Shown here piece by piece: positions 3,358-51,506 of a DNA stretch of 64,000 nt. The DNA comes from Naegleria gruberi (taxonomy: Eukaryota). Position numbers and translations under genes: made by a program. Every line of letters begins with the position of its first letter. Positions within the stretch are counted from its first letter, which is position 1. The stretch is from assembly GCA_000004985.1 (NCBI GenBank), contig GG738902.1; one strand, 5' to 3'. Under the pieces are notes generated by a model that was not told where the DNA came from, searched no databases, and saw only the letters and a list, made by a program, of their open reading frames with translations.

Positions 3358-3632
3358 TTACATTCTTTTCGAAAACAAGTCTTAATACAACGTTGAAGAA
3401 CGATTTTTACCAGCTGGCAAGATCAAGAAATTCAAGTGTTATTTCAACAAATTATTAATAATTGAACTTAGCACATAATATTAATTTTCTCTCGGAACAT
3501 ACCTCAATTTCCGAAGTCAGACACCACTCAAAAAAAAAATGCACATCGGAATTTCACTCCCTTACTTAAATCTCACTCTTCTTTTCCGATGCCAATCAAT
3601 GAAAAAAACAAGAAAACATCAATATCTTCCAG

Positions 3633-19970: not shown

Positions 19971-20392
19971 TTTTTTTAAGGAATTGTTTGGATTTTGTGT
20001 AGATTTTTGGCGGGAAAGTCTAATAATACAACACTCCTCAAACGTTCTCAGATTCTAGTTTGAAGTAAATGGTTATACCTGTTTGTTTTACAGTCAGAAG
20101 ATTGGATTGTTTGAGAATAGTTGGGAAACATTGGATTCCATCTGCTGTGAAAGATTCTATAAAAGAAATTAAAGTATATCTTTCAAAAGACGAAGTAACT
20201 ATTTTAAGGGAAGGCGAGGTTTACCATTTGTCTAAATAATTATGACAAAGAATGTACGTTGGTTCATATGTACTAAAATGAGCATGCTTTGTGTTTTGAA
20301 AATTAGAACCAATTCCATCCAGTAAATAACAAGTTTGAAACTAAACATTGCAAACAGAGAAAAACAGTAAGGTTAATCCAAATCAAAAAAAA

Positions 20393-21763
20393 ATGTCCGA
20401 AAAACAACCTTCATCAAACTCTTCAAACAACAATAACACAAAGCATGATAGTAATAATAGTAATAATAATAACGACAATGGAATGACCAATAAGATTGGA
20501 CATAAACAATTCATCTTGGAAAAACCCATCGATACAATATTTACAACAAGTAATTCTTCATCAAGAAGTTTCATAACACCACTAACACCAGAACAACAGG
20601 AAAGGTTGAAAATGATCGATCCAAAGCAGGCTATGATGTTGTATTTTGTTACAAGTACATTCTTTTCACGTCTGTTTGCTCATCCATTGGACAGAATTTC
20701 AACCATTCTCCGAACACAACATGTTCTTCCAAATGCGTATGGTACAAGCTTTTATACAAATTTGCCAACAGCAGTATCTTCATCATTGGTACAACCACAG
20801 CAACAGGCTCCTTTTAGAGGTGCCATTGATGCTTTGAAAAAACTTCCAAAGGATAGAACATTGTGGAGAGGATTGGCTCCCGATGTTTATGGGTAGGTTC
20901 CATATAAACTATGGATTTTAATATTTGGATTAACATTTGGAAATTGGATTTTTATTAATCTGGAAATTTATTATTATGGATTTTTTAATATTTAATTAAA
21001 TCAATTTGGATTTATTAATATTTCGGAAAGTCGCTTATGTGCAAAAGTAGTGGAATTACAATTTGCAGATGAAATTAACAACTTTATTCAACCTTGGATG
21101 GGAACTCTTGTAGAACAAGATCCAAACGATCCAAGAAAGAAACTTTTAAATACAAAGGTGTTGGCTACCTCTGTAATATCTGGTGCTGTTGCATCCTTCC
21201 TTATTTCTTATCCATTCAGTGTTGTTTCAACAAGAATGCAATCCAATTTAATTCCACTCCATGAAGTGAAATATAATATGGATTGGCAAATGGTGAACAA
21301 GACCAACTTTTCCAATGTATGGCAATCATTTAAATCAATCTATCAATTTGAAGGAATAAGAGGATTCTATACTGGTTTATCAGCTGCTGTATCTGGTCTT
21401 GCTGTTTATAGAGGCATCTATTTTGCCTTATTCGATTCATTGAGACGATTGGGAATGAGTGACAATTATTCATTGAGTGAGAAATTCTTATATAGTCAAG
21501 GTTGTATATTCACTGCTGGTCTCAGTGCTTATCCTTTCCGTCTCATTGGTGATCGATTGAAAGCTCAAGCTGTCTTTAGAAAATTATACACGGAGGAGGA
21601 AACTCAGCTATTCTATAGAGGAACTTTGGATGCCATGAAAAAGATTTACCAACAAGAGGGAATTAGAGGATATTACAGAGGATTTGTTTTTTCATTGGGC
21701 ACAAGTTATGCAGGTGCCATCTTACTAAGCATGTTTGTTGCCCTTGGATCGAGACAATTTTAA
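20393..21763 (+). CDS. Mitochondrial carrier family (SLC25) protein; exons 20393..20892 and 21031..21763
   Basis: Three carrier repeats are present (HPLDRISTILRTQ; YPFSVVSTRMQS; YPFRLIGDRLKAQ; GIRGFYTG, GIRGYYRG). The ORF-track start at 20348 is TTG; ATG 20393 follows an A9 run. Donor GTAGGT is at 20893. Acceptor AG at 21029-21030 is the only nearby acceptor that keeps frame. It gives RGLAPDVYG-RLCAKVVELQFADEI (138-nt intron). The acceptor choice is the weakest part of the model. Confidence 0.75.
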
Positions 21764-21909
21764 CTGTCACCCTTTAGCAAATGTTCCACAAGATCAGTAG
21801 ATAAATAATAATTAATTGTACAAAACAAATTTCATGAATGGATCAACAACAATAACAGTACTGATTAAAATAGTATTAAGGTTAGCAAAAATTTTATTGA
21901 GGGAATAAC

Positions 21910-22791
21910 TTATTCAGTCTTCTTTACATCAGTCTTCTTCCTCTTATAACTTTGAATATAAAAGTTCAAGAACAAGGCCAAGAAGGCAGCAACAGTCAAG
22001 TCAACCAAGAAGAATGGATAATAATTACCAGCACAAGTTTGGTTATCTCCATACTTGAACCACAACCAAACCTTTGGAACAACCAAATCAAAAACAAATT
22101 GAATAATTTGCATTCTGGTAATCCATGGCTTGATAACATTCAAACAACCTGGAGTAAAGATTGGAGAATTCTTAACAGTACAAACATAAAAGTAGAAATA
22201 CATGATAACGTGAACACCAGCATTCAAAGTTGAAGGGAACCACATCATTTGTGACTTTTCCAAAATGACATACCAACACAATAATAAGGTAATCATGTGA
22301 TGGAAGGTATGCAAGAAAGTCAAACTCTTACACTTGATCATTAAAAAGACAGTATCTAACAATTCATAATATTTGGACAAGTAGAAAATGTACAACCAGA
22401 AAGGAACTGCACCCTTTCCCATTCTATTAGGAACATCACAAGTTAAGGCAGAGAGTTTTTCCATAAAGCTAGCTTCTGGAATTTCATTAACAACTTCAAC
22501 AGCTTCACCAACAAATCCCAAAACCATGATCAAACTCAACACACTGAGGAAAATATTGTGGAATTTAATGAACATTTCCAAGAGTGGATGTTTCATTGGT
22601 GTATTATTTCTAACCTTTTTCATATACAGTGGAAGTAAATAAAGAGACAATCCATAACCAACAACAGCTGTTGCTGGATAGATCCAGTGAGATATTGGTG
22701 CTTCATTGTAAATGTACTTGAAATCGTGAATGTACTGGGACATTCCTTCACCATTAGGAATGAATTGTAAAAGTCTATCGATGAACACCAT
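21910..22791 (-). CDS. ELO-family fatty-acid elongase
   Basis: Multi-pass membrane ORF with the histidine box LTFLHTFHHMITLL and NAGVHVIMYFYFY. The ORF-track start at 22896 is TTG. The first ATG is at 22791 (MVFIDRLLQ). Confidence 0.85.
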   Translation of the reverse strand: MVFIDRLLQFIPNGEGMSQYIHDFKYIYNEAPISHWIYPATAVVGYGLSLYLLPLYMKKVRNNTPMKHPLLEMFIKFHNIFLSVLSLIMVLGFVGEAVEVVNEIPEASFMEKLSALTCDVPNRMGKGAVPFWLYIFYLSKYYELLDTVFLMIKCKSLTFLHTFHHMITLLLCWYVILEKSQMMWFPSTLNAGVHVIMYFYFYVCTVKNSPIFTPGCLNVIKPWITRMQIIQFVFDLVVPKVWLWFKYGDNQTCAGNYYPFFLVDLTVAAFLALFLNFYIQSYKRKKTDVKKTE

Positions 22792-23949
22792 ACTGATTCG
22801 AGATGATGATGAATATAAGAGTGGGTGTTGAGTGTGTTGGTTTTTTTCAAAAGTTTGAGCATACAGTCTTTGCACCAACCAGCCTTTATGGTTCAAACAA
22901 CAACAAGATCATCTTCACAGCCTCATTGGAAATTTTCAATAATTGAAACATCATCAACAAGGTGATGCTTGAAGCTGTTGTTTTTTGATTTTTACTCCAA
23001 CAACGGATCCTACAAATTGAAAAGTCCAAAATTGTGCGGTATGAAGCAATTTGTGTTATTAGGAAGTAAATAATATTGATAAGGTGGACGAGAATGGTGG
23101 AGGATCATTGATTGAGGATTATATGATGATTATTTTAATAATTAATATTGATCATCTTGTGTTGAATATTAATGTCGATTTTGTTGAGGTCTGAAGCCTA
23201 ATTGAACCGTAATTAAAATGGATGTTCACCACGCCTGTTGCCGATCCGATTTGTAATACTAGACAAACTCTTATTAAATAAATAGGCATGACCATCATCA
23301 ATGCACAATAATAATTTAATATACGATCGTCATGATGATGATGATGCAACTTTAACGTTGATGATGATGAGCATGGAAGGATGAAAGTTCTCCTGACGCG
23401 TGAATTTCAAAATGTGTATTTACTTTTGAAACTTCGTTAATAATAATAACAGAGAATTAAATAGTGGAATATCAACGGTACTATTATAATCTGTTATTGA
23501 TAATTTATTGTAAGGAAATTGAATTCAAATTGTAAGGTGGAGCAAATTTTCACACAGTACCAACTTGCTTCCATTATCGGTCTATTTTGATTTTGTCCGT
23601 TAGAGTGAAATTCCACCATTTGGAAAATTTTATTATTTGGGATTGTGAAATTTGACAGTGGTCACAGACCTTTTTTGTGGTTGTATAATAACTAGTAATT
23701 TACAGTAATGATAAGGTTGTTTGACTTTGAGGTGGAGTAAGGATGTCCTTCATGAGTGTCCTTACTTGTCGAACAAGGCATTTCGGTCACAAATGATTTT
23801 CAATACCAAGACTGCAAATATTACTTGTGAAAATAAGAAAAGGTGATAGATGTGTTTAGCCTAAAGGTTTAGGTCTGAAAACAGATTAGGATAATTTTCT
23901 TCAATTCGAATTAAAAAAATACCATTGAGATTGACCATCAAACGTCAAT

Positions 23950-25269
23950 ATGACTGAACAACAAACAGTGTTAATTGATGATCTTCAATTAATTTCAAAT
24001 CAATTTCCATGTGGTGATATTCTTTGGGAAATTTTATCATTTTGTAATGATTTTACATTTATTGTAATGAATTGTGCACTAGTTTCCAAACAGTGGTACC
24101 ATGTCATTTTGGAAAGATGTAAACTCTCATTAACCTGCAATTCGGATCAGAAATTGAAGGGAAAATTTCTTGAAAGAGTTTCAAATTTCACAGTTAAAAA
24201 GAATGAAGAAGGAAATTTGTTTAATTGTCAAATTTTTGAATGTTTGAAGAATTTGACAAGAATTGATATCAGTGATAATGAAATTAGCGATGAAAGGGTT
24301 AAGCATTTTGGTAATTTGACTCATTTGACAAATCTTGTAATTAATTGTAACGACATTGGTGTAGAGGGAGCTAAATGTCTTTGTCAACTGAATCAATTAA
24401 CAAGGCTTAATATTGGAAACAACAGTCTTGAGACTGAAGGTGCTAAATACATTAGTGAACTGAAGAATTTGACCAAACTTGATATCGCTCGCAACTGTAT
24501 TGGTGATAGAGGTGCTCAATTTATTACTGAAATGAAACAACTGACTTCTCTAAACCTTAACAGGAATGGAATTGAATATTTAGGAGCAAAATTTATTAGT
24601 GAAATGTATCAATTAACGAGTCTTGATATCAGTAACAATGACATTGGTTCTGAAGGAGCTAAACAAATTAGCAAACTCGACCAATTGACCAAACTATATA
24701 TTTACGATAATAATATTGGTGATGAAGGAGCTATGCACATTAGCGAAATGAAACAACTAACTAATCTCGATATTAGCAGGAATGATATTGACTCAGAAGG
24801 TGCCAAATCCATATGTGAACTCTATCAATTAACAAATCTCAATATTTGTTCGAATTACATTGGTGAAACAGGTGCCAAGCATATCAGTGAAATGAATAAT
24901 TTGACCATTCTTGAAATTGGCAGTAATGAAATTGGATCTGAAGGAGCGTATCATATCAGCAGAATGCACCAATTGACTAGGCTCATGATTTTTGCTAATG
25001 ATATTGGAGAAAAAGGGGCCAAACATGTTTCTGAGATGAAACAATTAACTAAACTCGATATTTATGATAATAATATTGGTGATGAGGGAACTATACACAT
25101 TAGCGAAATGAAACAATTAACCTACCTCGATGTTTCAGCCAATAATATTGGTCACGAAGGTGCTGAATATATTAGGAAATTGAATCGATTGACATTTCTT
25201 AATGTTCACTATAATTCATTCAGTGATAGTGAATCAGAACTTATAGAAAAGGAGTTAATGAAGGATTAA
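23950..25269 (+). CDS. F-box-like / RNI-type leucine-rich-repeat protein
   Basis: The N-terminus ILWEILSFCNDFTFIVMNCALVSKQWYHVI is F-box-like. About 13 24-residue repeats follow (L(T/N)xLDIsxNxIGxEGAKxISEMKQ), visible as a 72-nt period in the DNA. Confidence 0.8.
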   Translation: MTEQQTVLIDDLQLISNQFPCGDILWEILSFCNDFTFIVMNCALVSKQWYHVILERCKLSLTCNSDQKLKGKFLERVSNFTVKKNEEGNLFNCQIFECLKNLTRIDISDNEISDERVKHFGNLTHLTNLVINCNDIGVEGAKCLCQLNQLTRLNIGNNSLETEGAKYISELKNLTKLDIARNCIGDRGAQFITEMKQLTSLNLNRNGIEYLGAKFISEMYQLTSLDISNNDIGSEGAKQISKLDQLTKLYIYDNNIGDEGAMHISEMKQLTNLDISRNDIDSEGAKSICELYQLTNLNICSNYIGETGAKHISEMNNLTILEIGSNEIGSEGAYHISRMHQLTRLMIFANDIGEKGAKHVSEMKQLTKLDIYDNNIGDEGTIHISEMKQLTYLDVSANNIGHEGAEYIRKLNRLTFLNVHYNSFSDSESELIEKELMKD

Positions 25270-26568: not shown

Positions 26569-26986
26569 TGATATAGTCATTCACATGTGGACATGAAATT
26601 TAATAAAAATTCAAGAAAACAATCTTTTTCTCAATGTTGGAATACATGAAAATTAAGAACTTGTAAGTCCCAATTAATGTAAATTCCTTGTCTGATTTGG
26701 CGAGATATGTTACAATGGAAAAATTCATTAAAATTCATCTGCGTCTCACTTTACTGGTCAGAACTTCTCCCGCCAAATCGTAAACGAGTAACCAATCATA
26801 ACTGTTACGCTTGAAAAATTTACTTTAGAAAAAAAAAACTCAATTCTCTCCCCTCTACACTCTTTCAGTTGTTGTTGCAACAAATTTTTATCGTAGTGAG
26901 GGTTTTTATATATTTTGTATAGTTCATCATCCAAATCCAAATCATCATCAACCACCTTACTTACTATATTATTTATTAAATCGAGA

Positions 26987-29900
26987 ATGGGTTGCGGAAA
27001 TTCAAAATCAACACTCGGTGTAGTTGAGACCGTCGAAGAAAAACCAAAACAACAAGCCACTGTCAATAACACCACTAATACTACCACTGCTGTCATGACA
27101 GGAACACTTGAACCAGAGGCACCAAAGAAGAAGGATGGTTTCTGTTACTTCTTTGGTCTTGACAGTCAAACTAAGGAAAACCTCACTGAAGGGAATAAGG
27201 ATATGAAGGAACTACTTGGAGGAAAAGGTGCTAACTTGTGCGAAATGTGCAATTTAGGTATTAATGTTCCTCCTGGATTTACTGTTTCTACAGAAGCCTG
27301 TGAACACTTTAGCCAGCTTCATAACCTTGCTACTTCAGCAGGAGAAGAAGGAGCTGAAAAAAAGAATCTCACTTTACCAGAAAACATTCAAACACAAGTC
27401 GACGAATATCTCAAAAAATTGGAACAAGCAACTGGAAAGAAATTTACCGATTCATATGAAAATGATACAGATAAGGTTCTCTTAATTTCTGTGAGATCAG
27501 GAGCTGCCATTTCAATGCCTGGAATGATGGACACTATTCTTAACCTTGGTATTTGTGACAAGAATATTACTCAACTCGTTAAAAACTTTGGTGGAAATGA
27601 AAAATTCGCTTGGGATTCATATCGTAGTCTCGTTCAAATGTTCGGTGAAGTTGTCATGTCAGTCAAGCCAGAACATTTCGAAGACAATATCAAAAAGCAA
27701 AAGGAAAAGAGAGGTATTACTCATGATTCTGAATTGAATTTGGAAGAAATTCAACAAATCGTTCAAGATCACAAACTTACTATTTTCGAACAAACTGGAG
27801 GTGAAGACTTCCCACAAGATGTTCGTCAACAATTGTACAGAGCTATTATTGCTGTCTTTAACTCATGGCACAATAAGCGTGCTGTGCAATATAGAAAGAT
27901 TCACAACATTACTGGTCTTAAGGGAACTGCTGTAAATATTCAATCCATGGTCTTTGGTAATGTTGATGAACGTTCATGTTCTGGTGTCTGTTTCAGTAGA
28001 AATCCTTCAACAGGTGAAAATCTATTCTATGGTGAATATATGATTCAAGCACAAGGTGAAGCTATTGTTGCTGGTCAAAGAACTCCAGAAAAGATTGAAA
28101 CCTTGGCTACTAACTTCCCAGAATGTAACACTAGTTTGAAGGAAATCAGTACCAAATTGGAAAAGCACTTTAAGGATGTCCAAGATATGGAATTCACAAT
28201 TGAACAAAATACTCTCTATATGTTGCAATGCAGAAATGGTAAAAAGACAATTCAAGCTTCTCTCAAGATTTACTGTGACATGATAGATGAAGGTCTTATC
28301 AATGAAAGAGAAGCCATCTCAAAGATTGATGCTACTCAACTCAACCAAATGCTCCATCCATTCTTGGATGATTCTGAAAAGGCTCATCACGAACCTTTGG
28401 CAACTGGTTTACCAGCAAGTCCTGGTGCTGTAGTTGGTAGAATTGCTTTCACCAGTGAACAAGCCATTAAAATGTCTGAAACCAGAAAGGAAGATGGTGA
28501 TGTCATCTTGGTCAGAGAACAAACAAGCACTGAAGATTTGGCTGGTATGCATGCTTCTCAAGGTTTCTTGACTACTAATGGTGGTCTTACTTCTCATGCT
28601 GCTGTTGTTTCTCGTCAACAAGGTAAATGCTGTGTAAGTGGATGTAGCTTGCTTTATGTCACTAGTGAAGAATCTTGTACAATTAATGGAACCCTCTTTA
28701 ATCAAGGTGATATTATTACTATTGATGGTTCAACTGGTAATGTCTACGGTAAGGCTCTCAAGACAACTAGACCAGGTATTTCTCAACCTGACTTTGTCAG
28801 AATTATGGATATTGAAAAGAAGTACAGAACTATGAGTGTCTATGCTAACGCTGATACATCTGTCGATGCTCATAAGGCTGTTGAATTCGGTGCTGAAGGT
28901 ATTGGATTGTGTAGAACTGAGCACATGTTCTTTGAAAAGACAAGAATAGTTGACATGAGAAGAATGATTGTTGCCTCCACCACAGAAAAGAGACAAGAAG
29001 CTATTAATGTTCTCAAAGATTATCAACGTTCTGATTTCCTTTCCCTCTTCCATGCTATGGAAGGAAAGAAGGTCACTATTAGATTGTTAGATCCTCCACT
29101 TCACGAATTTTTACCAGAAGATCCACAAGAAATTGAAGAATTGGCTTTGGCTCTTGGTGAATCTGTTAAGGATGTTACCCTTACTGTCTCTCAACTCAAG
29201 GAAAAGAATCCAATGTTGGGTCATCGTGGTTGTAGATTGGGTATTACCTTCCCCGAGATTACTCAAATGCAAGTTGAAGCCATTTTTGAAGCTGCTATTG
29301 ATGCTACTCATAAGGGCGAAGTTGTTGTTGATATTATGGTTCCATTAGTTCAATCTGTTCAAGAACTTGTCAACCAAAAGGAAATTATTGAAAAAGTTGC
29401 TTCATCATTGTTTGCCAAGCATGAAGACAGAAAATATCTCATTCATTACAGAGTTGGTTGTATGATTGAAACTCCAAGAGCTGTTTTGATGGCTAAAGAA
29501 CTTGCTGGTGTTGCTGATTTCTTCAGTATTGGAAGTAATGACTTGACTCAAATGACCTTTGGTTTCAGTAGAGACGACAGTGGTAAATTCCTTAAATATT
29601 ATCTCGAACGTGACTTGATTGAAAATGATCCATTCGAAGTTTTGGATACAGAAGGTGTTGGAAAGATTATTCAACTCACTGTCCAAACTGGTAGAGAAGC
29701 AAAGAATGGTTTGACTGTTGGTTTGTGCGGTGAACATGGTGGTGAATCTCACTCTGTTAAATTCTTGTACCAATGCGGTCTTTCATATGTCAGTTGTTCA
29801 CCTTATAGAATTCCAATCGCTAGACTTTCTGCTGCTCAAGAATCTGTCAAGAATTGGAGAAATGTTATTTGTGTTAATGGTGGTCCAGGATCAGGAAAGG

Positions 29901-30412
29901 GCACACAATGTGCCAAACTTGTTGAAAAGTATGGTTTTATCCATTATAGTACAGGTGATTTGTTGAGAGCTGAAGCTGCTAAGGATACAGAACAGGGTAG
30001 AATGATCTCGTCATACATTAAGGAAGGTAAGATTGTGCCTGGTGCTGTTACTCTTGGTTTGTTAAGAAATGCTATTTTGAACCATCCTAAAAAGGATGCT
30101 ACGTTCTTGATCGATGGCTTCCCAAGAGAAATGCAACAAGCTGTTGACTTTGAAGCTCATGTCTGTAAATTCAAGTTTGTCCTCTTCTTTGATTGTCCAG
30201 AAGAAATTTTGGAACAAAGATTGTTAGAAAGAGGTAAGACGAGTGGTAGATCTGATGACAATGCCGAAAGTATTAAGAAGAGATTCAAGACCTATAGCGA
30301 CCAAACAATGCCAGTTATTGGATACTTTAAGAAGACTGATAGAGTCAAGACAATTGATAGTTCAAAGACACAAGAAGAAGTGTTTGCTGAAGTATGCAAA
30401 TTATTTGATTAA
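26987..30412 (+). CDS. PPDK: Pyruvate phosphate dikinase fused at its C-terminus to an adenylate/UMP-CMP-type nucleoside-monophosphate kinase domain
   Basis: One uninterrupted ORF. The ORF-track start at 26915 is TTG; ATG 26987 gives MGCGNSKS. PPDK motifs are GGKGANLCEM, the catalytic-His loop GGLTSHAAVVSRQQGKCCVSG (about 28579-28640), GLCRTEHMF, IGSNDLTQ and GLCGEHGG...SCSPYRIPIARLSAAQ. From about 29861 comes the NMP-kinase domain: VNGGPGSGKGTQC, GDLLRAE, LIDGFPRE, FFDCPEE and GRSDDNAESIKKRF. Confidence 0.9.
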   Translation: MGCGNSKSTLGVVETVEEKPKQQATVNNTTNTTTAVMTGTLEPEAPKKKDGFCYFFGLDSQTKENLTEGNKDMKELLGGKGANLCEMCNLGINVPPGFTVSTEACEHFSQLHNLATSAGEEGAEKKNLTLPENIQTQVDEYLKKLEQATGKKFTDSYENDTDKVLLISVRSGAAISMPGMMDTILNLGICDKNITQLVKNFGGNEKFAWDSYRSLVQMFGEVVMSVKPEHFEDNIKKQKEKRGITHDSELNLEEIQQIVQDHKLTIFEQTGGEDFPQDVRQQLYRAIIAVFNSWHNKRAVQYRKIHNITGLKGTAVNIQSMVFGNVDERSCSGVCFSRNPSTGENLFYGEYMIQAQGEAIVAGQRTPEKIETLATNFPECNTSLKEISTKLEKHFKDVQDMEFTIEQNTLYMLQCRNGKKTIQASLKIYCDMIDEGLINEREAISKIDATQLNQMLHPFLDDSEKAHHEPLATGLPASPGAVVGRIAFTSEQAIKMSETRKEDGDVILVREQTSTEDLAGMHASQGFLTTNGGLTSHAAVVSRQQGKCCVSGCSLLYVTSEESCTINGTLFNQGDIITIDGSTGNVYGKALKTTRPGISQPDFVRIMDIEKKYRTMSVYANADTSVDAHKAVEFGAEGIGLCRTEHMFFEKTRIVDMRRMIVASTTEKRQEAINVLKDYQRSDFLSLFHAMEGKKVTIRLLDPPLHEFLPEDPQEIEELALALGESVKDVTLTVSQLKEKNPMLGHRGCRLGITFPEITQMQVEAIFEAAIDATHKGEVVVDIMVPLVQSVQELVNQKEIIEKVASSLFAKHEDRKYLIHYRVGCMIETPRAVLMAKELAGVADFFSIGSNDLTQMTFGFSRDDSGKFLKYYLERDLIENDPFEVLDTEGVGKIIQLTVQTGREAKNGLTVGLCGEHGGESHSVKFLYQCGLSYVSCSPYRIPIARLSAAQESVKNWRNVICVNGGPGSGKGTQCAKLVEKYGFIHYSTGDLLRAEAAKDTEQGRMISSYIKEGKIVPGAVTLGLLRNAILNHPKKDATFLIDGFPREMQQAVDFEAHVCKFKFVLFFDCPEEILEQRLLERGKTSGRSDDNAESIKKRFKTYSDQTMPVIGYFKKTDRVKTIDSSKTQEEVFAEVCKLFD

Positions 30413-30435
30413 ATGTAAATAAATATATAAATATT

Positions 30436-31311
30436 CTAATTTCCATACGTCTCTGCAAACTTTTGAAGTAAATATTGGTAAGCTGTTTTGTTAACAGATT
30501 CAATAAAAAACTCCTTGTCTGGTTGTCCAAAGAATGCAATACTATACCTATCTGATTCATAATTAGACAGGACAACTTGATGAGGAACACTCTTATATTC
30601 TTGATCAGTCCATTCTTGCATCAAATCTCCACAATTTACAATAATGGCATCTTTAACACAAGGTGCATCAATCATTTCATTAGTGATTCGGTCCAAAACT
30701 TTCAAACCACCTGTACTATCCTGACATAACAATGTTATTGAACCATAGTCAGAGTGAATTCCACATCCATTACTAAATTTTGGAGCACTTGAATCAAGTT
30801 TAGGATAATGTAAATATCTCAAACTATGTTCCATTTCAGAGTGAGCCAGAGCAAAATCATCCGTTTGTTTACTCAATCCTCTCTGTAAATCACCCAATAA
30901 TTCAATCAATAGACCATGCAATTCCAAGAATAGTTTCTTTGAAAATTCCTCAAATCCCTTAACAGAACCATGTTCATCTTCATTAGGAAAATAAACTTTT
31001 CCATAATCTACATCCGACTTGGACATTCGAACATTGTAAGCCTCCTTCAGATCAATGTCCTTTCCATTTAATTTCTCACTATTCGTACTAATGTAACCAC
31101 TTTCTCCCTTCACTGTATGAAGTTCTTGTTTCACTTGTTTCGGCAATTCAAAAAACAGTTTTGAAAATTCAAAAGCTTGATCAATTAATGGAATTAATGG
31201 ATGATCAACAAGATAGAAAAATCCGATACTGTTCAGGGCATGTTTAATTTCGTCCAATCTCGTGTCGCTGTTGTATGAAATGATGGGAATTAAAGTTTCG
31301 TTTGGTTTCAT
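30436..31311 (-). CDS. 2-oxoglutarate/Fe(II)-dependent oxygenase (isopenicillin-N-synthase-like)
   Basis: Iron triad and 2OG site: GIHSDYGSITLL (H-x-D), SVPHQVV (distal His), RYSIAFF (R-x-S). The N-terminal DIOX_N-like region reads IPIISY...IGFFYLVDH. The ORF-track start is GTG. ATG 31311 follows an A7 run. Confidence 0.85.
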   Translation of the reverse strand: MKPNETLIPIISYNSDTRLDEIKHALNSIGFFYLVDHPLIPLIDQAFEFSKLFFELPKQVKQELHTVKGESGYISTNSEKLNGKDIDLKEAYNVRMSKSDVDYGKVYFPNEDEHGSVKGFEEFSKKLFLELHGLLIELLGDLQRGLSKQTDDFALAHSEMEHSLRYLHYPKLDSSAPKFSNGCGIHSDYGSITLLCQDSTGGLKVLDRITNEMIDAPCVKDAIIVNCGDLMQEWTDQEYKSVPHQVVLSNYESDRYSIAFFGQPDKEFFIESVNKTAYQYLLQKFAETYGN

Positions 31312-31597
31312 TTTTTTGAGTTTCGTAAGGTAGGTACTTTCCCAAGTCCACACATAACTTGGTTAAAATTCACAGATTTCTTCAATAAATCTTTATTAGA
31401 AAGTTCCTTTCCTCAACATTTTCATCCAATTATTGAAGGGAAGATTTGGCGCCAAAAAATTTCCGGATATTGTAAACTGGTTCTGCTGGTTGCAAAGCAT
31501 TTTTCCAGCAAAACAAAAGTTTGTGTTTTCTACCAACTGACAAACCTATTTAAGACGAAACCAATTCGAAACACCACTAAACAAAAACAACAAAAAA

Positions 31598-47493: not shown

Positions 47494-49381
47494 TCAGGTA
47501 AATTCCAATTTGAACTTTTTTAGGAATAAATTGTTGTAATTCAACAGTTTCGTTTCCAAGGCTCTCCATGATTTTTCTTAATAATTCATAAATTTCAATA
47601 ATTTCACTTAATTCATCCTTATTTAACAATTGAATGTCAGTTAAATATTCTTGATTCAAATATGTTTTGATAAATTCATCCAATACTATTAACTTCTCTT
47701 CCAATTCTTGAATATATTTGGTCAATTTCATTAAAAAATTCTCCGATTTAATGCTTTCTACCATACAAGTCATGTTTAACTTTAGTTCATCAACTTGTGA
47801 ACTTTCTTGTTCAAGTTTCAATTCATTAGCATGTTCAAAACAATTCTTTAACTTTTCACAAATTTCCAAATATTCTTTTTGAAATTCATTTTCTAATACA
47901 GTACATAAAACCTTAATTGCATTGATTTGTGAATTGGATTGAGTTTCTTCTTGTCTTTCAATATTTGTTTCTTGTGTTTCGTCTTGTTCTTTAATATTTT
48001 CGTCTTGTTTTTCGAGAGTTTCTTGATTTTCATCATGTTTTTCCTCTTGTTGTTCGAGAGTTTCTTGGTTTTCATCATGTTTTTCAAGTGGTTCTTGTTT
48101 TTCAAGAATTTCTTTCTTAATTTTATCTTTTTCAACTTTTTCATTCAATTCCTTCTTAATTTTGGAAATTTCCTTTCCGTTGACTTTCCATAAATTGTTA
48201 ATTTTAATATTTGGTGATTGAAGTAATAATTTAACAATTTCTAAACGTCCTTTTTCACATGCAATATGTAATGGAGACTAATAAATATTTAAAAATGTTG
48301 TAATTATTATTACTTACTTCCTATTATGGTAATGTTTAAAATAAGTATTAAATACAAACCATCTAAATAATAATGTAAAATATTTTAAATATTTAATTCT
48401 TACATGCTACGAGGAAATAATTAATAAATTAATTATTAATTTACATACTTCCTAAAATAGATAAATAATTTAATTGGTTAATTACTCACTTTCTAATAAC
48501 AAAGTTGGCAAATTAATTTCAATATTTAATAATACTAACTTCCTATTAAAAAAATTAATATTAAATATTAAAAATACTAACAATCTAAAAAAATGTAAAT
48601 ATTTAAAATTGTTTAAAAACTTACAACTCTCTAAAACAAATATACACGTAATTTAATTAGTAGAGACTTACTTGCTAATAAAAATATTAATTTAAGATTA
48701 TATTACTTAAATTACATACTTCCTAATAAGGAACTTGTTCATAAATAAAGAATTTAATACTTACTCCCTAATAATATTAACATTAAATAGTTATAAGTGA
48801 AATACTAACTTTCTAATAAATTATTTTATAAATAACTAAGTATTAAATACTTACATGCTAATAAAATGCTAATTTAATACAAAATTACCAAATTTAGAAT
48901 ACTTACATACTAAAAATAGTATTATTTTTATATTTTTTAATATTAAATTACTTACAGTCTGAAAATATTATTATTACAATGCTAGCAACACTTACAAACT
49001 AATAGCATTAAATATAAATAATTAATTATTCAATTCCTTACATACTAATTAATTATTTAGTATTTTACAATATTTCCTTAAATACTTACTTTCTACAATC
49101 ATACCCATTTAGATCTTATTAAACAATTGATATTCTACTCACATACTACTCAATTTTAAATATTTATAATGTTAATATTAAATAGTACTTACTCCCTTAT
49201 TCACATCAAGTCCTCCACAATTCAACAATAACTTGACAATTTCCAAATGTCCCCTCTCACAAGCCATGTACAACAATGTCTTATTCCGATCAGATTCATT
49301 TACCTTCGTTGGCTTGAAATACTTTTTAAACTCGGCAACGTTTCCACTATTTGCAGCATCTACAAGATGAGGAGAGAGCAT
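47477..49381 (-). CDS. Ankyrin-repeat plus acidic coiled-coil protein; exon 1 49381..49193, long exon 48277..47477, separated by the mini-intron/micro-exon array
   Basis: Exon 1 reads MLSPHLVDAANSGNVAEFKKYF...TLLYMACERGHLEIVKLLLNCGGLDVNKG and ends in phase 0 before GTAAGT. The exon from 48277 reads SPLHIACEKGRLEIVKLLLQSPNIKINNLWKVNGKEISK..., continuous with ORF 48148..47477. The M of that track entry is a TTG codon. Confidence 0.7.
48278..49192 (-). other. Array of 20 mini-introns (37-50 nt) separated by 19 micro-exons (18 of 3 nt, one of 6 nt)
   Basis: Micro-exons on the minus strand: 49145-49143 TAT; 49092-49090 AAA; 49044-49042 TAT; 48998-48996 TTT; 48958-48956 ACT; 48909-48907 TAT; 48857-48855 CAT; 48812-48810 AAA; 48767-48765 GGA; 48722-48720 GAA; 48674-48672 CAA; 48630-48625 AGAGTT; 48584-48582 ATT; 48542-48540 GAA; 48492-48490 AAA; 48451-48449 GAA; 48406-48404 CAT; 48362-48360 ATG; 48320-48318 GAA. 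Each is preceded by (T/A-rich)AG. Each is followed by GTAAGT (10 times; 11 counting the exon-1 donor), GTTAGT (3), GTATGT (2), GTGAGT (2), GTAAGG, GTAAGA or GTTTGT. Intron lengths sum to 855 nt and exon lengths to 60 nt, matching the 915-nt span. Confidence 0.7.
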
Positions 49382-49532
49382 TTTGATGTTTGGTGTTGTT
49401 TTGTTTTTTTTGAATGAAATTTTCTTTTTATCACCATATTAAGGCCTTAATGAAAGTTCATTATGGTTTGGGAACTTGTAATTTCTAGAAGTTGCGTTTG
49501 GAGTTTAATTAGAATGTTTAAAAATTGAAGTA

Positions 49533-51506
49533 TTAATCAGAATCACCAGAATATGATTCATAATCATCGGTTGAAATCATTTCTTGTTCGCGTGGTAAAC
49601 CATTAATGTAATCGGCATAATCTACTCGCAAATATTTGACTAAATGGAAAAATTGAGATCGTAGCATGGTGTTACCTTGAACGAACTCTCGTGCTTCGAT
49701 TTCTACACTATTACAGTTAATTTCTAGTAAACGGATAGCTAGCTCAATTATTCCTGTTTGTATCAGGGCAAGATTCCTCTTATTTTCAATGTCAAAATTA
49801 AGAACTTTCAGTGTTTTAGTTTTGGCTAAAGTAAAGTTGACTGCCTTATCAATATCCAATAGAGCTATTAAACCTGCAAAAATGTAAATGGAACGTTTCT
49901 CCAACATTGCTCGCATTAAAATTTCTACTAGCTTTTCAAGATTAGGTGGCTTAATTCCTTTCACAATATAGTCACAAACTAAATTGATGAGGCAGTTATT
50001 ATTTAGTGGAATCCAAGAGTTTTTGATAGCCAAGCTATAAATAAATTCCATATTTGATACCGCATTGCTTATAGGTTCAATAGCGTCATACATTTGATAT
50101 GAAACAAGTACTCTTGCTGGTCCAGTTAGTTCATTATTTGATCTGAAATAGAAGAGTAATAAATCCGAAATGACTTTCCTTATGTTATCATCCAAAAGTT
50201 GTTTCTCTGAAAGCAGTTGGTGTATGCGTAAACATAGAACCAATCGACCAGCCATTGTTTCTGGAAGTACGGTTTTCCAAGTTATAAATCCAGGTATTAA
50301 AGATTTAACAGCTAGCACCATCCTTTCCGTCATTCCTAATATTATTAAAATGGTTTCTATGAATTTGAAATACTCAGATTCAAGTGGATATTTTACAATA
50401 TTAGAAATTATACTTGTCAATTCGTCATCCTTAATCATCTTGTTAGTTAATTCCATTGTAGCACACAAAAAATTAAGAAATGGTTCAACATCCTCAGGTG
50501 TTTCCACTTTAAATTCAATCGTACCGTTGTAAATTACTTCCAAACATGACTGATCGAGCATAATTTGGTCCAAATGATATGGTAAACCTAGTAATAAAAT
50601 TTTTCTAATGGAATATGGAGCATTTTCGAGAATCTCTTTGATATAGAAATTTCCGAATGTTTCATCGCTGAAAAGGGCACATTTCATGGCTATTTCTCGT
50701 AAATCTAACAACTCTGTAGCATCCCCAATAATTCTAAAATAATGTGCAATGAATGCACTAAATTTGAGTTTTTCAACAACTTTCAAAGCTTTTCTTAATC
50801 TTTGATTGTGTTCTTCATTTCGTTCCAAATCACTAATAGCATCAAACTCTTGATTTAGAAAAGCAAATGTTGGAAACGGACAACTATGAGCATAGATTCG
50901 GAGTATGTCTATTAAATTCTCATCTGGTTCTACGTCAATTCTTTCATATAATAGTTGGAATAAGTTTTGCAACATTGGTTCATTTTTGGTTGTACGAACA
51001 ATTCTAAGGTCTGCATACTTTGAAAGTAATTTTTTTTCTCTTGTTGTCCATTTTGGACACATTGCCTTGTCATTCCAATATTTTTCATTATAATGTGACA
51101 AGAAATCAATTAACTTGATGTAAAAAACATGAGAAAGAGTAGCACCTTCAGTATTCATACACGCCCAGACAGCATGAAAATACCAATACGGTACCACATG
51201 TTCATACTTAGTATTTGGAAACAGAAAATTGTCCCTTGTCTCCTTATAGTCATCCAAAAATCGATAAACCAACTGGCCAGCACCACCAAGGTTGATCACT
51301 TTAAATAAATTTGTAATATCATCATCGTCACTCCAAGAAATTTCCGTAAATGTTTCTTCATCTTCCATCATGTCATTTTGAACAATATCACACAACAGTT
51401 CATAGCTTGTGTAAATGTCTCCCCCAGGCAGCTCATCGGACAGTTGTGACTTGTGCAAATGTTCCTTCAGAGCATCACGGTTAGGTCCATCACGAAGTTT
51501 GAACAT
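49533..51506 (-). CDS. Large hypothetical protein (helical-repeat-like), no recognised domain
   Basis: 657-codon uninterrupted ORF whose ATG follows an A8 run. Confidence 0.6.
   Translation of the reverse strand: MFKLRDGPNRDALKEHLHKSQLSDELPGGDIYTSYELLCDIVQNDMMEDEETFTEISWSDDDDITNLFKVINLGGAGQLVYRFLDDYKETRDNFLFPNTKYEHVVPYWYFHAVWACMNTEGATLSHVFYIKLIDFLSHYNEKYWNDKAMCPKWTTREKKLLSKYADLRIVRTTKNEPMLQNLFQLLYERIDVEPDENLIDILRIYAHSCPFPTFAFLNQEFDAISDLERNEEHNQRLRKALKVVEKLKFSAFIAHYFRIIGDATELLDLREIAMKCALFSDETFGNFYIKEILENAPYSIRKILLLGLPYHLDQIMLDQSCLEVIYNGTIEFKVETPEDVEPFLNFLCATMELTNKMIKDDELTSIISNIVKYPLESEYFKFIETILIILGMTERMVLAVKSLIPGFITWKTVLPETMAGRLVLCLRIHQLLSEKQLLDDNIRKVISDLLLFYFRSNNELTGPARVLVSYQMYDAIEPISNAVSNMEFIYSLAIKNSWIPLNNNCLINLVCDYIVKGIKPPNLEKLVEILMRAMLEKRSIYIFAGLIALLDIDKAVNFTLAKTKTLKVLNFDIENKRNLALIQTGIIELAIRLLEINCNSVEIEAREFVQGNTMLRSQFFHLVKYLRVDYADYINGLPREQEMISTDDYESYSGDSD

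What the first reader, a model, noticed from the sequence alone, without database searches (positions are those of the whole stretch)
26987..30412. Pyruvate phosphate dikinase fused in one ORF to an adenylate/UMP-CMP-type kinase domain
A single stop-free reading frame runs from the PPDK C-terminus (...GLSYVSCSPYRIPIARLSAAQESVKNWRN) straight into a complete short-type NMP kinase. That domain carries P-loop GGPGSGKGTQC, GDLLRAE, IDGFPRE, FFDCPEE and RSDDNAESIKKRF.

PPDK interconverts PEP + AMP + PPi and pyruvate + ATP + Pi. Adenylate kinase is the enzyme that supplies or removes AMP (2 ADP = ATP + AMP). In PPi-dependent glycolysis the two activities are functionally coupled.

A covalent fusion would be a Rosetta-stone style confirmation of that coupling and could channel AMP. 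I do not recall this domain fusion being described. The kinase domain looks closest to the UMP-CMP/AK1 subgroup, so its substrate (AMP versus UMP/CMP) cannot be decided from sequence by eye.
Basis: partly seen in the sequence, partly recalled or inferred. Interest (0 to 1): 0.65.

Follow-up and report, generated by a model that had tools for sequence, protein, structure and literature searches.

The report
Pyruvate dikinase–adenylate-type kinase fusion, Naegleria
In the amoeba Naegleria one intact gene encodes the glycolytic enzyme pyruvate phosphate dikinase joined directly to an adenylate-kinase-type enzyme and carrying a membrane-anchor signal; the fusion is real, kept by selection in three species (including the brain pathogen N. 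fowleri), found nowhere else I could search, and sits in the databases without any discussion I could find.

Summary
Window 26987-30412 (+) is one intron-free 1141-codon gene, identical to Naegleria gruberi XP_002671847.1/D2VVU5, which is named only "pyruvate phosphate dikinase". It holds a complete PPDK (aa 66-951) and, about 8 residues later, a complete short-type NMP kinase (aa 960-1141).

Positional orthologues with the same architecture exist in N. fowleri and N. lovaniensis. Both halves are under strong purifying selection (dN/dS 0.03-0.04). No other organism showed the fusion in three protein searches and a metagenome scan.

New points:
- All three orthologues start with the identical MGCGNSKST, a myristoylation plus palmitoylation consensus that unfused PPDKs lack.
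- The kinase module was copied at DNA level from a resident kinase that carries an RIIa/DPY-30 axonemal docking domain. The two genes share a 21-nt P-loop micro-exon with identical intron phases.
- The fused clade has both adenine-contacting residues of true adenylate kinases (Thr989, Gln1051).

Most likely it is a membrane-tethered bifunctional enzyme that couples PPDK's AMP to the ADP/ATP pool (PEP + PPi + 2 ADP = pyruvate + Pi + 2 ATP). Activity, substrate and location are inferred, not shown.

The sequence is already deposited, and I found no description of the fusion. Three key Naegleria papers could not be read.

The parts
26987..30412 (+). Complete single-exon CDS of the PPDK-kinase fusion (1141 aa plus stop). 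It equals XP_002671847.1 / EFC39103.1 / UniProt D2VVU5.
26987..27013 (+). N-terminal MGCGNSKST. Gly2 with Ser6 and Lys7 fits the N-myristoylation consensus, and Cys3 is a palmitoylation candidate. It is identical in all three fused orthologues and absent from all unfused PPDKs.
   Evidence: Acylation itself is inferred.
27014..27181 (+). Poorly conserved, low-complexity spacer of about 55 aa between the acylation motif and the PPDK core. Identity to N. fowleri is about 40%.
   Evidence: dN/dS 0.2-0.9, against 0.03 for the enzyme domains
27182..29839 (+). Pyruvate phosphate dikinase, aa 66-951. It comprises the ATP-grasp nucleotide domain (PPDK_N, aa 75-371), the mobile phospho-histidine domain (aa 505-584) and the PEP/pyruvate TIM-barrel domain (aa 605-952).
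   Evidence: TIGR01828 scores 1151 bits against a cut-off of 843. Pfam. End-to-end alignment to C. symbiosum PPDK 1KBL, 910 bits.
28589..28597 (+). T535-S536-H537 of GGLTSHAAVV: the catalytic phospho-histidine and the neighbouring Thr.
   Evidence: Invariant in alignment A1 and aligned to GGMTSHAAVVAR of 1KBL.
29726..29728 (+). Cys914 of GLCGEHGG, the PEP-domain catalytic Cys.
   Evidence: Invariant in A1 and aligned.
29840..29863 (+). Junction ESVKNWRN, 8 aa between the last PPDK helix and the first beta-strand of the kinase. It holds no Met and no stop, and is conserved as ESIKNWRK in the other two species.
29864..30409 (+). Short-type NMP kinase domain, aa 960-1141 (Pfam ADK; UMP-CMP kinase family TIGR01359).
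29879..29905 (+). P-loop GGPGSGKGT (aa 965-973, Lys971). In N. fowleri and N. lovaniensis the stretch G-GPGSGK-G is encoded by a 21-nt micro-exon.
29951..29953 (+). Thr989 of STGDLLR, equivalent to E. coli ADK Thr31, which contacts adenine N7. The fused clade has Thr or Ser here. Stand-alone relatives and characterised UMP-CMP kinases have Ala.
   Evidence: residue role from PMC3369945
30137..30139 (+). Gln1051, four residues after the Arg of DGFPR. It is equivalent to E. coli ADK Gln92, which contacts adenine N6. Dictyostelium and human UMP-CMP kinases have Asn here.
30218..30286 (+). Short LID and catalytic arginine/aspartate cluster RLLERGKTSGRSDDNAESIKKRF (aa 1078-1100).
   Evidence: Matches AK1, URA6 and UMP-CMPK at every Arg and Asp.
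20348..22896 (.). Upstream syntenic genes: a mitochondrial-carrier gene (20348-21763, +) and an ELO-family gene (21910-22896, -). They lie in the same order and orientation as upstream of the fused gene in N. fowleri and N. lovaniensis.

Best explanation
This is a genuine bifunctional enzyme gene restricted to Naegleria. One polypeptide carries four elements: an N-terminal myristoylation/palmitoylation signal, a spacer of about 55 residues, a complete catalytically competent PPDK and, 8 residues after its last helix, a complete short-type NMP kinase that most likely uses AMP.

PPDK interconverts PEP + AMP + PPi and pyruvate + ATP + Pi. The tethered kinase interconverts AMP + ATP and 2 ADP. The fused enzyme therefore links PPDK to the abundant ADP pool, with the net reaction PEP + PPi + 2 ADP = pyruvate + Pi + 2 ATP. 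In reverse, the kinase removes the AMP that PPDK produces.

The lipid anchor would place this ATP-buffering module on a membrane. The flagellar or plasma membrane is a reasonable guess, because the kinase module descends from a kinase with an axonemal docking domain.

Shown here: one ORF, conservation, synteny, purifying selection, intact catalytic motifs, the origin of the kinase module and the restricted distribution.

Inferred: both activities, AMP as substrate, acylation, the location and the physiological direction.

A physical AMP channel is not supported. The kinase is attached to the C-terminal PEP-binding domain, whereas AMP binds the N-terminal domain, so any benefit is by proximity.
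For: One gene:
- The ORF is continuous, with no Met between the domains.
- The exact model is deposited.
- Orthologues of 1135-1139 aa exist in N. fowleri and N. lovaniensis. They share upstream synteny (Mito_carr, ELO) with the window.
- In those species four phase-1 introns are spliced in frame across the fusion.

Selection (N. fowleri against N. lovaniensis, dS about 0.9-1.0): dN/dS is 0.032 for PPDK, 0.037 for the kinase and 0.015 for the junction.

PPDK competence:
- TIGR01828 scores 1151 bits against a cut-off of 843.
- Alignment to 1KBL scores 910 bits end to end.
- His537, Cys914, LCRTEHMF, IRLLDPP, MIETPR and GSNDLTQ are invariant.

Kinase competence: the P-loop, Arg994, Arg1047 and the RLLERGKTSGRSDDN...KKRF cluster are all intact.

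AMP as substrate:
- Thr989 and Gln1051 match ADK Thr31 and Gln92, which bind adenine N7 and N6.
- The Ala to Thr/Ser change is specific to the fused clade.
- The closest solved relative, yeast URA6 (213 bits), phosphorylates AMP, CMP and UMP.
- The sister stand-alone kinases carry an RIIa/DPY-30 docking domain like axonemal AK8, FAP385, EFCAB10 and NME5 (profile E 1e-5 to 3e-3).

Membrane anchor:
- MGCGNSKST is identical in the three orthologues while the next ~50 residues are about 40% identical.
- Every unfused PPDK lacks it.
- Dual acylation targets calflagins to flagellar membrane rafts in the discoban T. brucei.

Restricted distribution: only Naegleria proteins contain both parts in a 5.8-billion-protein word-indexed search, an exhaustive HMMER search of 1.84 billion representatives and a metagenome scan with a junction probe.
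Against: - No transcript, proteomic or enzymatic data were available.
- The kinase domain passes the curated cut-off of the UMP-CMP kinase family but fails the AK1 equivalog cut-off (209 bits against 284).
- Its NMP-binding segment KEGKIVPG resembles UMP-CMP kinases more than AK1.
- N. lovaniensis has Ser rather than Thr at the Thr31-equivalent position.
- The kinase is attached to the PEP-binding domain, far in sequence from the nucleotide-binding domain, so the geometry does not obviously favour AMP hand-over.
- Both deposited N. fowleri models lack the P-loop micro-exon. If that reflects real splicing, some isoforms would be kinase-dead.
- Membrane or flagellar location rests only on a sequence motif and an analogy.
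Confidence: 0.65

Rival explanations
1. The fusion is real, but the kinase domain is a pyrimidine (UMP/CMP) kinase. The fusion would then not couple AMP to PPDK. It would serve some other purpose, for example local UDP/CDP supply, or it has no kinetic meaning.
For: TIGR01359 (UMP-CMP kinase family) scores 228 bits against a cut-off of 207.6, while the AK1 equivalog scores 209 against 284. The top four distinct solved sequences are uridylate or UMP-CMP kinases. The KEGKIVPG segment is UMP-CMPK-like. UniProt names the N. lovaniensis orthologue 'UMP-CMP kinase'.
Against: Characterised pyrimidine-specific members (Dictyostelium, human) have Asn at the Gln92-equivalent position and Ala at the Thr31-equivalent position. 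The fused clade has Gln and Thr/Ser. Yeast URA6, the best hit, is itself a good AMP kinase. The parental lineage carries an axonemal docking domain typical of flagellar adenylate kinases such as AK8. There is no obvious metabolic logic linking UMP/CMP to PPDK.
Confidence: 0.17
2. Same bifunctional enzyme, but its physiological direction is gluconeogenic. PPDK makes PEP from pyruvate, and the tethered kinase pulls the reaction by converting the product AMP (with ATP) to 2 ADP, as adenylate kinase does for PPDK in C4 chloroplasts.
For: Both reactions are reversible, and the fusion stoichiometry works either way (established enzymology). N. gruberi is reported to prefer lipids over glucose as fuel (review text, citing Bexkens 2018). 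That would make gluconeogenic flux relevant. An unfused PPDK paralogue exists that could serve the other direction.
Against: Nothing in the sequence indicates direction. A membrane anchor and an origin from an axonemal ATP-buffering kinase fit local ATP regeneration better than bulk gluconeogenesis. Naegleria uses PPi-dependent PFK, which is the usual partner of glycolytic PPDK.
Confidence: 0.25
3. The kinase domain is not a working enzyme in the fusion. It acts as an adenine-nucleotide sensing or regulatory module for PPDK, or is switched off by skipping the P-loop micro-exon in species that have it.
For: Both N. fowleri gene models skip the 21-nt micro-exon in frame and so delete GGPGSGK. 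Skipping keeps the reading frame, so a kinase-dead isoform is possible.
Against: N. gruberi has no intron and always encodes the P-loop. The micro-exon is 20/21 nt conserved between diverged introns. It is used in both the N. lovaniensis fused and stand-alone gene models. All catalytic Arg, Asp and Lys residues are conserved, with dN/dS 0.037. Gene predictors commonly miss 21-nt exons, which would explain the N. fowleri models.
Confidence: 0.06
4. Artefact: two adjacent genes merged by mis-assembly or by a sequencing error that removed a stop codon.
For: None found. In principle a single-genome observation could be an error.
Against: The same architecture occurs in three independently sequenced and assembled species at a syntenic locus. 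There is no start codon for a separate kinase. The junction is conserved and under selection.
Confidence: 0.01

Closest known systems
Stand-alone pyruvate phosphate dikinase (e.g. Clostridium symbiosum 1KBL/1DIK, maize 1VBG, T. brucei 2X0S, and the unfused Naegleria/Willaertia paralogues P0003, P0124, P0005, P0004)
   Same: Full three-domain PPDK with about 50% identity to bacterial and DPANN PPDKs and 65% to the unfused Naegleria paralogue. All catalytic residues are conserved.
   Different: It carries an N-terminal acylation motif with spacer and a C-terminal NMP kinase domain. No other PPDK among the best 120 to 150 hits of three searches has a kinase domain.
Yeast uridylate kinase URA6 (1UKY) and the eukaryotic UMP-CMP kinase family (TIGR01359)
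   Same: Best solved relative of the kinase domain (213 bits). Same short LID, the same catalytic residues and Gln at the Gln92-equivalent position. URA6 phosphorylates AMP as well as UMP and CMP.
   Different: URA6 and other family members have Ala where the fused clade has Thr or Ser (Thr31-equivalent). They are free-standing proteins of about 200 aa.
Axonemal adenylate kinases with RIIa/DPY-30 docking domains (AK8 in 9FQR; compare radial-spoke FAP385, EFCAB10 and NME5)
   Same: The nearest stand-alone relatives of the fused kinase (Willaertia P0190, N. lovaniensis P0198; 70-72% identity) have the same layout: a docking domain followed by a short-type kinase. They share the P-loop micro-exon with the fused genes.
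   Different: In the fusion the docking domain has been replaced by a whole PPDK, and the targeting device is now an N-terminal acylation motif.
Functionally coupled but separate PPDK and adenylate kinase (PPi-dependent glycolysis of Entamoeba and Giardia, glycosomal PPDK plus glycosomal ADK of trypanosomatids, C4 chloroplast PPDK/AK/pyrophosphatase)
   Same: Same pair of activities and the same stoichiometric logic. In trypanosomatids the two are co-confined in one organelle (general enzymology from my own knowledge).
   Different: There the coupling is by co-location of separate proteins. Here it is covalent, 1:1, and probably membrane-tethered.
Tandem adenylate-kinase arrays (P0247, P0248, P0269, P0303, P0318, P0322, P0351)
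   Same: Same kinase subfamily (DGFPR...Q motif) used as a module in multidomain proteins. P0303 also starts MGCGASK, and P0247, P0269 and P0322 have N-terminal stretches that look DPY-30-like by eye (not tested with a profile).
   Different: They contain only kinase repeats and no PPDK.

Membership tests
Pyruvate, phosphate dikinase (TIGR01828 equivalog; EC 2.7.9.1) | Full-length match above the curated cut-off | tested here: met
   1151 bits against a cut-off of 843, aa 66-951. Alignment to 1KBL scores 910 bits over residues 8-868 of 873.
Pyruvate, phosphate dikinase (TIGR01828 equivalog; EC 2.7.9.1) | Three-domain architecture: ATP-grasp domain, mobile phospho-His domain and PEP/pyruvate TIM barrel | tested here: met
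   PF01326, PF00391 and PF02896 all score above their gathering thresholds.
Pyruvate, phosphate dikinase (TIGR01828 equivalog; EC 2.7.9.1) | Catalytic His in G-G-x-T-S-H and catalytic Cys in G-x-C-G-E | tested here: met
   His537 and Cys914 are invariant in A1 and aligned to the C. symbiosum enzyme.
Pyruvate, phosphate dikinase (TIGR01828 equivalog; EC 2.7.9.1) | PPi- and AMP-dependent PEP to pyruvate activity | not testable with these tools
   Needs an enzyme assay.
Adenylate kinase superfamily (Pfam PF00406 ADK), short type | ADK domain with a P-loop, an NMP-binding Arg, DGFPR and a short LID with an Arg/Asp cluster | tested here: met
   PF00406 E 1.7e-48. Motifs present: GGPGSGKGT, GDLLR, DGFPR and RGKTSGRSDDN...KKRF.
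UMP-CMP kinase family (TIGR01359, subfamily model) | Score above the curated cut-off | tested here: met
   228.4 bits against 207.6. From my own knowledge this subfamily model also covers proteins designated adenylate kinase, so membership does not fix the substrate.
UMP-CMP kinase, pyrimidine-specific type (Dictyostelium 1QF9, human CMPK1 1TEV) | Asn four residues after the DGFPR Arg, and Ala in the S-A-G-D/E-L-L-R motif | tested here: not met
   The fusion has Gln1051 and Thr989.
Adenylate kinase isozyme 1 (TIGR01360 equivalog) | Score above the curated cut-off | tested here: not met
   209.5 bits against 284.1. In the NJ tree, which was rooted on human AK1, the domain groups with URA6 and the UMP-CMP kinases.
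Adenylate kinase (functional class, EC 2.7.4.3) | Adenine-contacting Thr (E. coli Thr31) and Gln (Gln92) in the NMP site | tested here: met
   Thr989 and Gln1051. Residue roles from PMC3369945.
Adenylate kinase (functional class, EC 2.7.4.3) | AMP + ATP = 2 ADP activity | not testable with these tools
   Needs an enzyme assay.
Dually acylated (N-myristoylated and S-palmitoylated) membrane proteins | N-terminal Met-Gly, a small residue at position 6, no Pro at position 7 and Cys at position 3 | tested here: met
   MGCGNSK fits G-{EDRKHPFYW}-x(2)-[STAGCN]-{P} (PROSITE pattern, recalled from memory). It is identical in the three orthologues.
Dually acylated (N-myristoylated and S-palmitoylated) membrane proteins | Actual lipid modification and membrane association | not testable with these tools
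   Needs labelling or fractionation.

The most novel reading that the evidence does not exclude
Naegleria has built a lipid-anchored, two-enzyme ATP-regenerating module from a duplicated PPDK and the catalytic core of an axonemal adenylate kinase. It sits on the flagellar or cortical membrane and turns PEP + PPi + 2 ADP into 2 ATP on the spot. If so, it would be a covalent Rosetta-stone fusion for PPi-dependent glycolysis, one I found nowhere else. It would also be a parasite-specific target, since humans lack PPDK, in the brain pathogen N. fowleri. In the two intron-containing species the P-loop micro-exon could additionally act as a splice-controlled on/off switch for the kinase.
Probability: 0.3. 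Interest if true: 0.65.

Novelty: new variant of a known kind. Interest (0 to 1): 0.5.

Why it matters
PPDK uses AMP, which is scarce in cells, so PPi-dependent glycolysis has long been assumed to depend on adenylate kinase. A conserved, selected, covalent 1:1 fusion is genetic evidence for that coupling. It also offers a clean experimental system for comparing kinetics of the fused protein with the separated domains, to test whether proximity helps.

The conserved acylation signal, together with the kinase module's descent from a kinase with an axonemal docking domain, suggests spatially organised ATP buffering at a membrane in an amoeboflagellate. That is directly testable by tagging.

Three practical points follow:
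- The enzyme exists in the lethal pathogen N. fowleri, and PPDK has no human counterpart.
- Both public N. fowleri gene models are missing the kinase P-loop because a 21-nt exon was skipped.
- The protein names in the databases ("pyruvate phosphate dikinase", "UMP-CMP kinase", "hypothetical protein") hide the architecture.

Tried and rejected
1. Literature. Ten full-text searches found no mention of the fusion. They combined Naegleria, PPDK, dikinase, adenylate kinase, fused, bifunctional and the accession numbers. The three most relevant papers are not held: Opperdoes 2011 on N. gruberi metabolism, Fritz-Laylin 2010 in Cell, and Fritz-Laylin & Cande 2010 in J Cell Sci. Prior description therefore cannot be excluded.

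2. Other fusions. The long or multi-stretch hits of the exhaustive search were fetched and tested separately against each half. All were tandem-AK arrays or PPDKs with other extensions.

3. The junction-spanning search did not list P0001 or P0002 themselves. That word-indexed search is therefore not exhaustive, and I relied instead.

4. Metagenome scan with a junction probe. The 80 best loci cover only the PPDK side.

5. Structure prediction was abandoned. The mixed PPDK and kinase alignment A4 placed the short kinases on the PPDK region (spurious invariant G890 and G892). The tools return no coordinates, so inter-domain geometry could not have been measured anyway.

6. Single-sequence search of the stand-alone kinases' N-terminal extension gave only sub-threshold hits. 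A 9-sequence profile made them significant.

7. I first suspected that the P-loop was deleted in N. fowleri. This was rejected after reading the DNA: it lies in a skipped micro-exon.

8. Downstream synteny does not hold. The window has a 2OG-Fe(II) oxygenase gene where N. fowleri and N. lovaniensis have a SNAP-domain gene.

Full report
**Observation**

The window is Naegleria gruberi NEG-M. A stop-free frame runs 26915..30412 on the plus strand. Its first ATG is at 26987, and the 1141-aa product is identical to XP_002671847.1 / EFC39103.1 / UniProt D2VVU5, which is named only "pyruvate phosphate dikinase".

Pfam finds PPDK_N (aa 75-371), PEP-utilizers (505-584), PEP-utilizers_C (605-952) and ADK (964-1117, E 1.7e-48).

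With the window's composition (about 33% G+C), an open frame of 1141 codons has a chance probability of about 8e-39. The 188 kinase codons alone give about 5e-7. No Met lies between the PPDK end and the P-loop; the first is M1006. A separately translated kinase is therefore impossible.

**Is the fusion real?**

N. fowleri (P0002, 1135 aa) and N. lovaniensis (P0121, 1139 aa) have the same architecture at 74-75% identity. Their loci (L001, L002) are syntenic with each other. Upstream they are also syntenic with the window: a mitochondrial-carrier gene, then an ELO gene on the minus strand. These are positional orthologues.

N. gruberi has no intron. The other two species have four introns at identical positions, all phase 1. 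Two of them flank a 21-nt micro-exon that encodes G-GPGSGK-G, the P-loop.

The deposited N. fowleri models (P0002, P0127) skip this exon and so lack the P-loop. The exon is nevertheless present with canonical AG/GT flanks. It is 20/21 nt identical to the N. lovaniensis exon, while the flanking introns are diverged and full of indels.

It is not met. Introns exist near the junction in the sister species, but they preserve the frame.

Nei-Gojobori estimates for N. fowleri against N. lovaniensis (dS about 0.9-1.0) are:

| Region | dN/dS |
|---|---|
| PPDK | 0.032 |
| Kinase | 0.037 |
| Junction | 0.015 |
| N-terminal extension | 0.20 |

**Distribution**

- The word-indexed search of 5.8 billion proteins with the whole fusion listed only the Naegleria entries with both PF00406 and the PPDK domains.
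- A junction-spanning query found only an N. fowleri fragment with both.
- An exhaustive HMMER search of 1.84 billion cluster representatives ranked the Naegleria cluster first at 1905 bits. The next PPDK scored 866 bits.
- The other long or multi-stretch hits were fetched and tested against each half. They are tandem-AK arrays or PPDKs with unrelated extensions.
- A metagenome scan with a 120-aa junction probe gave 80 loci that all stop at the PPDK end.

Within what I can search, the architecture is confined to the genus Naegleria.

**Evolutionary origin**

Each Naegleria species also has an unfused PPDK (P0003, P0124, P0005), and Willaertia magna has one (P0004). In an NJ tree the fused PPDKs form a 100% clade. 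Its sister is a 100% clade of unfused enzymes that includes Willaertia. The PPDK duplication is therefore older than the Naegleria/Willaertia split. No fused Willaertia protein is in the databases.

The kinase domains of the three fusions, plus an unknown 393-aa protein (P0187), form a 98% clade. With 68% support it is sister to 244-aa stand-alone kinases of N. lovaniensis and Willaertia, which are 70-72% identical to the fused domain.

The stand-alone N. lovaniensis gene (L003) has the same 21-nt micro-exon, with introns at the same positions and phases. The kinase module was thus copied at DNA level, introns included. The breakpoint lies in exon 1, exactly where the catalytic core begins (RKVVFVLGG). 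N. gruberi later lost all four introns.

What was replaced is a 60-aa N-terminal extension. A 9-sequence profile of that extension identifies it as an RIIa/DPY-30-type docking domain:

| Hit | E-value |
|---|---|
| Radial-spoke FAP385 | 1e-5 |
| EFCAB10 | 4e-5 |
| PKA RI-alpha D/D domain | 5e-5 |
| Adenylate kinase 8 | 7e-4 |
| Axonemal enolase | 2e-3 |
| NME5 | 3e-3 |

The parent therefore looks like an axoneme-docked kinase of the AK8 type.

**Are the two enzymes competent?**

The PPDK part scores 1151 bits on the TIGR01828 equivalog, against a cut-off of 843. It aligns end to end with C. symbiosum PPDK (910 bits). The phospho-histidine (His537 in GGLTSHAAVV), Cys914 (GLCGEHGG) and the PEP-site motifs are invariant.

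The kinase part has the P-loop, Arg994 (GDLLR), Arg1047 (DGFPR) and the short-LID cluster RLLERGKTSGRSDDN...KKRF, all matching AK1, URA6 and UMP-CMP kinases.

**Which substrate?**

By family models the domain belongs to the UMP-CMP kinase family: TIGR01359 scores 228 against 207.6. It does not reach the AK1 equivalog (209 against 284). Its best solved relative is yeast URA6 (213 bits).

Three observations point to AMP.

1. The two side chains that contact the adenine of AMP in E. coli ADK are Thr31 (N7) and Gln92 (N6) (PMC3369945). Both are present as Thr989 and Gln1051. Dictyostelium and human UMP-CMP kinases have Ala and Asn at these positions. URA6 and the stand-alone heterolobosean kinases have Ala and Gln. 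Only the fused clade has Thr or Ser.
2. URA6 itself phosphorylates AMP, CMP and UMP efficiently (PMC13397275).
3. The parental lineage carries an axonemal docking domain, as flagellar adenylate kinases do.

I put AMP use at roughly 0.7-0.8. Exclusive pyrimidine specificity is the main rival.

**N-terminus**

All three fused orthologues begin MGCGNSKST. The next ~50 residues are only about 40% identical between N. gruberi and N. fowleri, and no unfused PPDK has the motif.

Gly2, Ser6 and Lys7 fit the N-myristoylation consensus, and Cys3 is the usual palmitoylation site. This reading rests on my own knowledge of the consensus. In the related discoban T. brucei, dual acylation takes calflagins to flagellar membrane rafts (PMC5617996). 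A review also reports glycolytic enzymes associated with the Naegleria flagellum during differentiation (PMC7729029). Membrane tethering is therefore a reasonable inference. Flagellar location is a hypothesis.

**Mechanism**

The two reactions and their sum are:

- PPDK: PEP + AMP + PPi = pyruvate + ATP + Pi
- Kinase: 2 ADP = ATP + AMP
- Sum: PEP + PPi + 2 ADP = pyruvate + Pi + 2 ATP

The fusion fixes the two activities at 1:1 and keeps AMP production next to AMP consumption. In reverse it removes product AMP.

The kinase follows the last PPDK helix after only 8 residues (ESVKNWRN). It is thus attached to the PEP-binding domain rather than to the nucleotide-binding domain. I see no basis for a physical channel; proximity is the conservative reading. 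Direction cannot be read from sequence.

**Comparison and novelty**

The parts are textbook enzymes and the coupling is textbook logic. It is otherwise achieved by separate proteins, for example co-confined in trypanosomatid glycosomes.

What differs here is the covalent fusion, the swap of a docking domain for a lipid anchor, and the narrow distribution. The sequence has been public since 2010, with domain hits precomputed. I found no paper that mentions the fusion, but three key papers were unreadable.

I rate it a new variant of a known kind, with interest about 0.5.

Noticed in passing
L001:11075-11095 (N. fowleri) and L002:11020-11040 (N. lovaniensis): The kinase P-loop (G-GPGSGK-G) is encoded by a 21-nt phase-1/phase-1 micro-exon. 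Both deposited N. fowleri models (XP_044567465.1/KAF0982752.1 and a 519-aa 'unnamed protein product') skip it and therefore lack the P-loop. This is either an annotation error or in-frame alternative splicing that would switch the kinase off.
   Followed up: partly
L003:3001-4118 (N. lovaniensis stand-alone kinase gene, micro-exon 3487-3507): The stand-alone 244-aa 'UMP-CMP kinase' gene has the identical micro-exon and intron phases. This shows DNA-level descent of the fused module. The N. gruberi fused gene has lost all four introns.
   Followed up: yes
P0190 / P0198 residues 1-60 (Willaertia and N. lovaniensis stand-alone kinases): Proteins annotated 'UMP-CMP kinase' carry an N-terminal RIIa/DPY-30 docking domain. 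Profile hits include radial-spoke FAP385, EFCAB10, AK8, NME5, axonemal enolase and the PKA RI-alpha D/D domain. They are probably axonemal adenylate kinases and may be misnamed.
   Followed up: yes
P0187 (393 aa, ENA metagenome/transcript contig of 1208 nt): It is the nearest relative of the fused kinase clade (98% bootstrap, SSGDLLR motif). Its N-terminal 208-aa region is unrelated to PPDK and of unknown nature. The same kinase subclade has apparently been fused to something else in another organism.
   Followed up: no
P0303 (924 aa, four tandem AK domains; organism unknown): It starts MGCGASK, the same dual-acylation-type N-terminus as the Naegleria fusion. Lipid-anchored AK modules may be a recurrent theme.
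   Followed up: no
window 30410-30438: The fusion's stop codon (30410-30412) and the stop of the convergent 2OG-Fe(II) oxygenase gene (30436-31353, minus strand) are only 23 nt apart. The two 3' UTRs must be extremely short or overlap.
   Followed up: no
window 23950-25269 (+) compared with L001:6097-7450 and L002:6508-7733: Between the syntenic ELO gene and the fusion, N. gruberi has a 439-aa leucine-rich-repeat ORF. The other two species have a 224-aa gene without Pfam hits. Downstream neighbours also differ (2OG oxygenase against a SNAP-domain gene), so there has been local rearrangement around a conserved core.
   Followed up: partly
window 48001-50000: G+C drops to 0.25, against about 0.33 across the rest of the window.
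   Followed up: no
P0267, P0304, P0305, P0313, P0393 (metagenomic PPDK-like proteins, 1292-3697 aa): These are long PPDKs with a C-terminal extension whose sequence, by eye, looks like a second divergent PEP-utilizers_C-type region, plus other extensions. It is a different, unexplained PPDK architecture that surfaced in the exhaustive search.
   Followed up: no
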